Assembly: GCA_964016885.1 (NCBI GenBank)
Contig: OZ024747.1
Location: 21,018,001 to 21,082,000 of the forward strand
Reading direction: 5' to 3'
Origin: Eledone cirrhosa
Lineage: Eukaryota
Length of the DNA: 64,000 nt
Shown: one piece after another, positions 63,294 through 63,786 of the stretch
Numbering within the stretch: position 1 is the first letter of the stretch
How the letters are laid out: the number at the start of each line of letters is the position of its first letter
Translations under genes and position numbers: made by a program
Notes under the pieces: generated by a model
Database searches by the model: none
What the model was told of the DNA's origin: nothing
Seen by the model: only the letters and a program-made list of their open reading frames with translations

Positions 63294-63347
<54 letters not shown>

Positions 63348-63458
63348 TAAGAGGAATTCCAACTTTGTCTGATTTACTCGTTTTATTTACAATCTTTAAA
63401 ATTTATAATGGTATTATAATGAAATAGTATGGTAGAATATTAAATGTTAAGTGTTAAT

Positions 63459-63497
63459 TGAACAAGTACTTTCATGCTTTCGCAATCTTCAGGTTCA
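63459..63497 (-). ncRNA. Minimal type I hammerhead ribozyme (left arm)
   Basis: Exact reverse complement of 63571-63609. Confidence 0.7.
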
Positions 63498-63570
63498 TAA
63501 TGTGTGGTGACAGTCAAGTTTGCAATTTTCAACAGTTGAAATTTGCAAACTTGACTGTCACCACAGAATA

Positions 63571-63609
63571 TGAACCTGAAGATTGCGAAAGCATGAAAGT
63601 ACTTGTTCA
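63571..63609 (+). ncRNA. Minimal type I hammerhead ribozyme (right arm)
   Basis: TGAAC-CTGAAGA-tTGC(GAAA)GCAt-GAA-AGTACT-T/GTTCA, with a GNRA-capped stem II and palindromic stem III. Confidence 0.7.
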
Positions 63610-63786
63610 ATTAACACTTAACATTTAATATTCTATCATACTATTTCATTATAATACCATTATAAATTTTAAAGATTGTAAATAAAACGAGTAAATCAGA
63701 CAAAGTTGGAATTCCTCTTATTAATATAATCTTCTATACACAATCATACACACCCATGTATATTTATCTATCTATCTATATATATA

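What the first reader, a model, noticed from the sequence alone, without database searches (positions are those of the whole stretch)
63341..63727. Viroid-like ambisense rod: 387-bp palindrome with a hammerhead on each strand
Seen: an almost perfect palindrome with a 1-nt centre, flanked by TA-rich repeats, and no supportable ORF. It holds an identical minimal HHR (TGAAC-CTGAAGA-TTGCGAAAGCAT-GAAAGTACTT-GTTCA) in both polarities. A transcript from either strand would contain one HHR and its antisense and could fold into a ~190-bp dsRNA rod. Known: PLE insertions often have inverted pLTRs, and ambisense HHRs in a rod are a hallmark of viroid-like circRNAs. Inference: this is either a fold-back PLE/retrozyme insertion or a non-coding unit in which ribozyme folding competes with dsRNA formation, which would make it an ADAR or siRNA substrate.
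Basis: partly seen in the sequence, partly recalled or inferred. Interest (0 to 1): 0.75.

Follow-up and report, generated by a model that had tools for sequence, protein, structure and literature searches.

The report
Head-to-head Penelope retrotransposon stub
This 390-base mirror repeat is one of at least 939 near-identical stubs of a common jumping gene (a Penelope-like retrotransposon) in this genome, not a viroid-like RNA, and each stub was likely built on landing from two separately started DNA copies of the front end of the element's RNA, joined head to head.

Summary
The palindrome is real (63340-63728; 194-bp arms, 4 mismatches), and each arm holds a minimal type-I hammerhead motif. 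It is not viroid-like. The arm is the first ~195 nt behind the predicted transcription start of a young 4.2-kb Penelope-like element (RT, CX4CxxC linker, GIY-YIG). At least 939 such palindromes exist genome-wide. Genome-wide, 774 of 818 palindromes have a tail at exactly one end. In 7 of 19 long inverted insertions the tail-less arm is clearly the longer, and the centre base is split 58:42 between arms. Fold-back of one cDNA cannot give either result; two separately primed cDNAs can. Sister arms share private variants, so both mostly come from one source. The hammerhead is the element's ordinary passenger, predicted to be sequestered in any read-through hairpin. No RNA data were available. The architecture is published; the two-primer reading was not found in my paper searches. 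This scan has reported the same pattern in other genomes.

The parts
63296..63344 (.). (TA)n target microsatellite, left side; any target-site duplication is hidden in it
   Evidence: TRF; sequence
63340..63533 (-). Left arm: pLTR/5'UTR stub, element positions +1..+194, tail-less (ends at the upstream TA-rich site TTATTAATATA)
63459..63497 (-). Minimal type-I hammerhead motif of the left arm (predicted cut between 63464 and 63463)
   Evidence: mirror of the + motif
63532..63536 (.). Head-to-head junction (AC-A-GT) at the predicted RNA 5' end (element positions -2..0, initiator-like ACAGTT); centre base A63534
   Evidence: modal junction in 19 of 50 sampled palindromes; 494 genome-wide hits with a tailed arm; 276 solo stubs start at the same point
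63535..63728 (+). Right arm: pLTR/5'UTR stub, element positions +1..+194
63571..63609 (+). Minimal type-I hammerhead: helix I TGAAC/GTTCA, core CTGAAGA, helix II TGC-GAAA-GCA closed by U.U, GAAA, palindromic loop III GTAC, U-H = TT; predicted cut after 63604
   Evidence: 5173 exact 37-mers in the genome
63729..63780 (+). Penelope 'tail': element 5'UTR +195..~+250, present at this end only; fades into (TA)n at the element's second TA-rich site
63781..63860 (.). (TA)n then (AG)n, right side of the target

Best explanation
This is a minimal head-to-head insertion of a young Neptune-type Penelope-like retrotransposon, likely made when the element's protein nicked both strands of a (TA)n site and primed two separate DNA copies of the element's RNA that ran off its 5' end and were joined there. 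Shown: the arm is the 5'-most ~195 nt of a 4202-bp unit (pLTR/5'UTR, ORF1, then RT + Zn-linker + GIY-YIG); ~95% of such palindromes have the tail at exactly one end; arms mostly share one source. Inferred: (1) the centre is the transcription start, 25-35 nt behind a TATA-like box and CCAAT boxes that are not copied; (2) reverse transcription starts inside the RNA at two TA-rich sites, +193 (tail-less end) and ~+250 (tailed end), one per target strand; (3) when it starts on the 5' copy of these sites only ~200-250 nt remain to be copied, which fixes the stub size and centre; (4) the two cDNA 3' ends (…ACTGT-3') anneal symmetrically over 4 bp with a central T.T mismatch that resolves either way, and each strand is then filled in on the other. 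The hammerhead is the element's normal pLTR passenger. It likely cuts rarely and only as a dimer or with protein help, and it would be silenced in any read-through hairpin. The stub has no predicted promoter and is likely inert.
For: Parentage: arm plus upstream ORF in L003/L004; full tandem unit with 775-aa RT-EN frame; relatives are RT + GIY-YIG proteins, several named from bivalves. Abundance: 939 palindromes with hammerheads 60-90 nt apart, control 0; 1433 promoter-linked copies. One-tail rule: 774 tail+none, 22 tail+tail, 22 none+none genome-wide (94.6%); 46 of 50 sampled short palindromes, the other 4 having one arm cut short; 19 of 19 long inverted insertions with both ends visible (L163's tail called by eye). 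Against fold-back: the tail-less arm is clearly the longer in 7 of those 19 (L048, L156, L160, L166, L170, L174, L175), and a copy of a tail-less strand cannot gain a tail. Centre base on the tailed arm is A in 58 and T in 42 of the 100 listed of 494 (hand count), where tail-first fold-back predicts ~100:0. Both arms reach -1/-2 with 0-1 nt between them in L071, L075, L102, L103, too tight for a hairpin. Long junctions show 2-13 nt overlap in 11 of 19. One source: sister arms differ by 2.1% against 4.7% between loci, site 183 is discordant in 0 palindromes, and 12 private variants are shared by both arms; L172 shares 17 and L061 shares 53 private variants. In vitro precedent for two internal start sites bounding the tail, cutting of both strands and a predicted dimer: PMC11167929.
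Against: No transcript data: the start site, the priming sites and ribozyme activity are all inferred. 44 of 818 palindromes break the one-tail rule (10 checked, 9 genuine; L319 is a partial tail). Post-insertion flipping of the centre by recombination could scramble the centre base, although copies with 0 arm differences also show both states. The window's own arms differ at three family-polymorphic sites (32, 34, 102), and L083 has arms of two subfamilies, so some insertions used two RNAs or were later converted; one molecule versus two RNAs from one locus is not resolved. A cap-templated G before the start is only weakly seen (about 9-11 of 100 listed solo stubs). Neptune versus Nematis was not settled by a tree.
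Confidence: 0.8

Rival explanations
1. Same element, but made by fold-back/self-priming: one cDNA reaches the RNA 5' end, folds on itself and copies itself back as far as the TA-rich +193 site (a version of the self-priming idea in PMC3846280).
For: Explains one tail and shared private variants. Some centres are true palindromes at TTTGCAAA (L028/L029) or 13 nt (L159). Published interpretation.
Against: Tail-less arm is longer in 7 of 19 long insertions; centre base 58:42; both arms complete with 0-1 nt between them in four copies; 22 none+none palindromes and tail-less solo copies exist.
Confidence: 0.12
2. A functional non-coding unit: a viroid-like/retrozyme ambisense rod, or a host-used dsRNA source (ADAR or siRNA substrate) in which ribozyme and hairpin compete.
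For: A read-through RNA would form a very stable rod. The hammerhead is structurally conserved in related elements.
Against: One of >=939 dispersed copies with unique flanks; not tandem; no second independent ribozyme; hammerhead helices have probability 0.00 in the rod and <=0.05 (helix II up to 0.32 in the left arm) in a single arm; the TATA-like/CCAAT region is absent from the stub; no host exon was detected among 127 frames from the window and 20 kb downstream (a weak test); no A>G excess in shared variants.
Confidence: 0.05
3. Assembly fold-back artefact.
For: No record spans the whole locus in the runs laid.
Against: Four arm differences, a one-sided tail, flanks that do not mirror, the same anatomy at hundreds of loci, and a short-read-derived contig that bridges this junction type with 31+ letters each side (X2 record 14; may be another copy).
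Confidence: 0.01

Closest known systems
Insertions of endonuclease-positive Penelope-like elements with an inverted 5'-truncated pLTR and a 30-40-bp tail at one end (Craig et al. 2021, PMC8557442 Fig. 2; Adineta vaga Pen2a/Pen3a, PMC3846280)
   Same: Head-to-head inverted pLTR, tail at one end, microsatellite target without a visible TSD, TATA/Inr-like motifs in the pLTR, partial tandems and long inverted copies elsewhere in the family.
   Different: Here the whole insertion is only two pLTR stubs with no ORF; the tail is ~50 nt; the copy number allows the one-tail rule to be counted (774/818) and fold-back to be tested.
PLE minimal hammerheads (Cervera & de la Pena 2014, PMC4209133)
   Same: Type-I core, short helix I, palindromic loop III; that paper already notes dual min-HHRs ~100-700 bp apart on opposite strands in Schistosoma; monomers inactive in vitro.
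   Different: Helix II is only 3 bp and is closed by U.U rather than the usual G10.1-C11.1; one related element (L255) has the same U.U layout.
PAc Poseidon element of Anolis in vitro (Frangieh et al. 2024, PMC11167929)
   Same: Two internal RT start sites bounding the tail, AT-rich target cut on both strands, predicted dimer, protein-assisted hammerhead not needed for insertion.
   Different: PAc start sites are not homologous to the target and lie in the ORF; here both inferred sites are TA-rich like the target and lie in the 5'UTR. That paper gives no model of inverted insertions.
LINE-1 twin priming (recalled, not from a call)
   Same: Two target strands each prime cDNA, and the products are joined by microhomology into an inversion.
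   Different: In L1 the two pieces are non-overlapping and the second site is random; here both copies cover the same sequence and use two fixed sites.
Viroids, viroid-like circular RNAs and non-LTR retrozymes (10.64898/2026.07.22.740005; viroid features recalled)
   Same: Hammerhead motif; rod-like fold if transcribed through.
   Different: No tandem monomers, no independent ribozyme in the opposite polarity, no circle; the rod is a perfect DNA inversion made at insertion.

Membership tests
EN+ Penelope-like element (derivative) | Sequence is the pLTR of an element coding RT plus C-terminal GIY-YIG | tested here: met
   (RVT_1 E 3e-6, GIY-YIG E 3e-6)
EN+ Penelope-like element (derivative) | CCHH motif with two Cys inside the GIY-YIG core; DKG motif | tested here: met
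   LIYCIKCPNCEELYVG, two downstream His (VHRQ, SGHL) and QADKGG in the 775-aa frame; CCHH defined in PMC8557442
EN+ Penelope-like element (derivative) | Tandem/inverted pLTR insertions with a one-sided tail | tested here: met
Neptune (or Nematis) clade | CX2-5CxxC linker between RT and EN | tested here: met
   CNDNRCGTC; definition
Neptune (or Nematis) clade | (TA)n target bias | tested here: met
   outer ends in (TA)n-type repeats in nearly all copies shown
Neptune clade | RT groups with reference Neptune sequences in a tree | not tested
   no named reference PLE sequences were returned by the tools
PLE minimal type-I hammerhead | Core CUGANGA...GAAA...UH with helices I and II and palindromic loop III | tested here: met
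   window motif passes; 41 hits in 32 of 128 related loci, 40 of them sense to the ORF; reversed control 0
PLE minimal type-I hammerhead | G10.1-C11.1 pair | tested here: not met
   U.U at this position
PLE minimal type-I hammerhead | Self-cleavage | not testable with these tools
   indirect hint only: 3 of 4 solo stubs starting in positions 65-75 begin at the predicted cut
Viroid-like circular RNA | Circular RNA with independent ribozymes in both polarities within a rod | tested here: not met
   second motif is the inverted duplicate of the first; each strand carries its own antisense; circularity not testable
Non-LTR retrozyme | Head-to-tail tandem monomers each with a type-I hammerhead | tested here: not met
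   single head-to-head pair; definition

The most novel reading that the evidence does not exclude
Penelope-type integration is intrinsically two-ended: one ribonucleoprotein (likely a dimer) primes two cDNAs from one source transcript, one at each of two fixed internal sites and one on each target strand, and joins them head to head. The puzzling inverted pLTRs and one-sided tails of the whole class would then be the normal product, and these ~390-bp palindromes the run-off product at the RNA's 5' end. The few stubs that begin exactly at the hammerhead cut would be a fossil record of rare self-cleavage in vivo.
Probability: 0.55. Interest if true: 0.6.

Novelty: new member of a known kind. 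Interest (0 to 1): 0.36.

Why it matters
As an object it is an ordinary transposon scar. As a family it gives a countable record for an open question: reviews call the origin of PLE tandem/inverted structures 'still undefined' (PMC8557442). The 774:22:22 split, the tail-less-longer insertions and the even centre base discriminate between self-priming and twin priming. Many uninterrupted 775-aa RT-EN frames exist, so the prediction can be tested in the published in vitro system. About a thousand ~190-bp near-perfect inverted repeats may also be a source of hairpin RNA or instability where host transcripts cross them (untested).

Tried and rejected
Rfam found no hammerhead; its miRNA-like hits are below the gathering scores and reflect hairpin shape only. 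Expression: no RNA holder listed; the four runs laid are contigs from one study, none spanning the locus, so there is no evidence on expression, editing, small RNAs or circles. A search for helix-II covariation inside the genome gave 5 hits, all decayed copies of the same family, so covariation support comes only from relatives. ADAR signature in variants shared by both arms: not seen. Helix-I probabilities were computed in the wrong register and are replaced. A host gene around the locus was not detected (100 of 110 window frames plus 27 downstream frames scanned); short exons would be missed. Scan look-up by sequence returned nothing. Paper searches found no paper that applies twin priming to PLE pLTRs; the library lacks most subscription papers (e.g. 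Arkhipova 2006, Evgen'ev & Arkhipova 2005 not seen), and supplements were not read. Dimerisation of two RNAs through the hammerhead's palindrome as the cause of inversion was considered and set aside: Naiads lack hammerheads yet make the same structures.

Full report
Observation. The palindrome is real: 194-bp arms around A63534 (63340-63728), with mismatches only at arm positions 8, 32, 34 and 102; the next complex palindrome in the window has 58-bp arms. The quoted hammerhead lies at 63571-63609 (+) and 63459-63497 (-). Rfam does not call it.

What it belongs to. One arm matches many places in the 3.0-Gb genome; the hammerhead 37-mer occurs exactly 5173 times. In some copies the arm follows a 3'UTR with CCAAT boxes and a TATA-like box and, further up, an RT and GIY-YIG frame. 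A tandem copy (L156) shows the full 4202-bp unit: pLTR/5'UTR, a 449-aa ORF1, and a 775-aa frame with DKG, YLDD, a CX4CxxC linker and a CCHH-type GIY-YIG. Many of the 150 scored copies keep the 775-aa frame open, so the family is young. The best 120 protein relatives are RT + GIY-YIG proteins, several named from bivalves. By the linker and the (TA)n targeting it is of Neptune type (definitions in PMC8557442, passages and Introduction read); no tree with named references was made. The window's feature is therefore two copies of the first ~195 nt of this element's predicted transcript, joined at their 5' ends.

How common. 939 places have the two hammerhead cores head to head 60-90 nt apart (control 0). 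1433 copies keep the upstream promoter junction, and 276 solo stubs are joined to (TA)n at the same 5' point. Apart from promoter-linked copies, no fetched arm extends beyond position -3, and this sharp edge lies at an initiator-like ACAGTT 25-35 nt behind the TATA-like box (consensus motifs recalled). I infer that the centre is the RNA's 5' end. A G that could be cap-templated precedes the start in about 9-11 of 100 listed solo stubs and in L075 and L109: weak support.

How it forms. The two outer ends correspond to two TA-rich sites in the 5'UTR, +193 and ~+250; the stretch between them is the known PLE 'tail'. PMC11167929 (main text read) shows in vitro that the tail lies between two internal RT start sites and that both target strands are cut and extended. 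Genome-wide counts with matched anchors give 774 tail+none, 22 tail+tail and 22 none+none palindromes (94.6%); 10 of the exceptions were checked and 9 are genuine. Of 50 sampled short palindromes (L113 dropped as a near-duplicate of L082), 46 have exactly one tail, none has two, and 4 have an arm cut short. Of the long inverted insertions fetched, 19 had both outer ends readable (left out: L157, L158, L161, L162, L168, with an end outside the stretch or one orientation only, and the diverged or incomplete L057, L114, L126, L140); all 19 have one end of each kind (L163 called by eye). The tail-less arm is clearly the longer in 7, slightly longer in 1, equal in 1 and shorter in 10. A strand folded back on a tail-less cDNA cannot acquire a tail, so the 7 need two separately primed cDNAs. 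At the modal junction the central base sits with the tailed arm in 58 and against it in 42 of the 100 listed hits of 494 (hand count; not different from 50:50, p=0.13), as expected if two ACTGT-3' ends anneal around a T.T mismatch, and not as expected from tail-first fold-back. Long junctions overlap by 2-13 nt in 11 of 19, are blunt in 2 and carry extra bases in 6. This differs from the self-priming reading in PMC3846280 (passages read).

One source or two. Sister arms differ by 2.1% (n=48) against 4.7% between loci; common minor alleles are in both arms 153 times and in one arm 43 times; 12 private variants are shared and 78 are not. In 18 long insertions shared private variants reach 17 (L172) and 53 (L061). 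So both cDNAs usually come from one locus, perhaps one molecule copied twice with strand displacement. Against a strict one-molecule rule, L083 has arms of two subfamilies, and the window's own arms differ at three family-polymorphic sites plus the recurrent A-to-T change at position 8; two RNAs or later conversion would explain these.

The hammerhead. A descriptor with a palindromic loop III finds the window's motif and 41 motifs in 32 of 128 related loci from other organisms, 40 of them sense to the ORF, with different helix sequences; the reversed control gives 0. It is thus the ordinary PLE minimal hammerhead of PMC4209133 (parts 1-2 of 4 read), which also reports opposite-strand pairs ~100-700 bp apart and inactive monomers. 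Here helix II is 3 bp closed by U.U instead of G10.1-C11.1; L255 has the same layout. Predicted helix probabilities are 0.46-0.98 for the motif alone, at most 0.05 (right arm) or 0.32 (left arm, helix II) in a single arm, and 0.00 in a read-through rod. Of only 4 solo stubs starting in positions 65-75, 3 begin at the predicted cut, and L159's inner arms start there too: a small hint of rare cleavage in vivo, against 276 stubs at the 5' end.

Viroid-like reading. Not supported: the second ribozyme is the inverted duplicate of the first, there are no tandem monomers (retrozyme definition from 10.64898/2026.07.22.740005, part 1 of 5 read), and the copies sit in unique flanks. The stub lacks the upstream TATA-like/CCAAT region. 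D. virilis Penelope has an internal promoter (PMC2377424, passages read); even if this one did, transcripts would run outward from the centre as single arms, not rods. A rod needs host read-through, for which I have no data.

Verdict. A new member of a known kind; the architecture is in print, and the two-primer mechanism was not found in my seven paper searches. Earlier notes of this scan describe the same pattern in at least 39 genomes; I had reached this reading before that look-up, tested their editing claim here (not seen) and their cap claim (weakly seen). Interest 0.36; the mechanistic reading would merit about 0.6 if confirmed.

Noticed in passing
L156 (G000:C9:38020000-38029999), ORF1/ORF2 overlap; relatives L181, L182, L185: The parent element has a 449-aa ORF1 overlapping the RT-EN frame in -1, with an in-frame T TTT TTA slippery heptamer (motif recalled). 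All 27 matches seen in own loci have the same run length, and 3 of 21 relatives inspected (40-47% identity) keep the same layout: likely a programmed -1 frameshift. PMC8557442 Fig. 1 legend mentions frameshifted ORF1s in PLEs.
   Followed up: partly
window 30672-34085: A second, different PLE family: RT-like frame on the minus strand (30672-31898) and RT plus GIY-YIG pieces on the plus strand (32619-34085; 42-49% identical to the family studied), again back to back.
   Followed up: partly
window 5738-5795, 9433-9501, 50533-50596 (minus strand): Three near-identical weak tRNA-like hits, probably heads of a tRNA-derived SINE.
   Followed up: no
L017, L068, L082 junctions: Short direct repeats of GAAAATT are added at the centre, as if the joining step primed and slipped several times.
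   Followed up: no
arm position 8 (window 63542): An A-to-T change that perfects the palindrome TTTGCAAA recurs in 4 of 50 sampled palindromes, always in one arm only, on either the tailed or the tail-less arm.
   Followed up: partly
L268 (a metagenome-assembled bacterial record): A related PLE with the same hammerhead on both strands 1.5 kb apart; this and other hits in bacterial bins are probably animal host DNA.
   Followed up: no
window 61085-62446: 1.3-kb CAC/CAT-rich tandem array about 900 bp upstream of the insertion.
   Followed up: no
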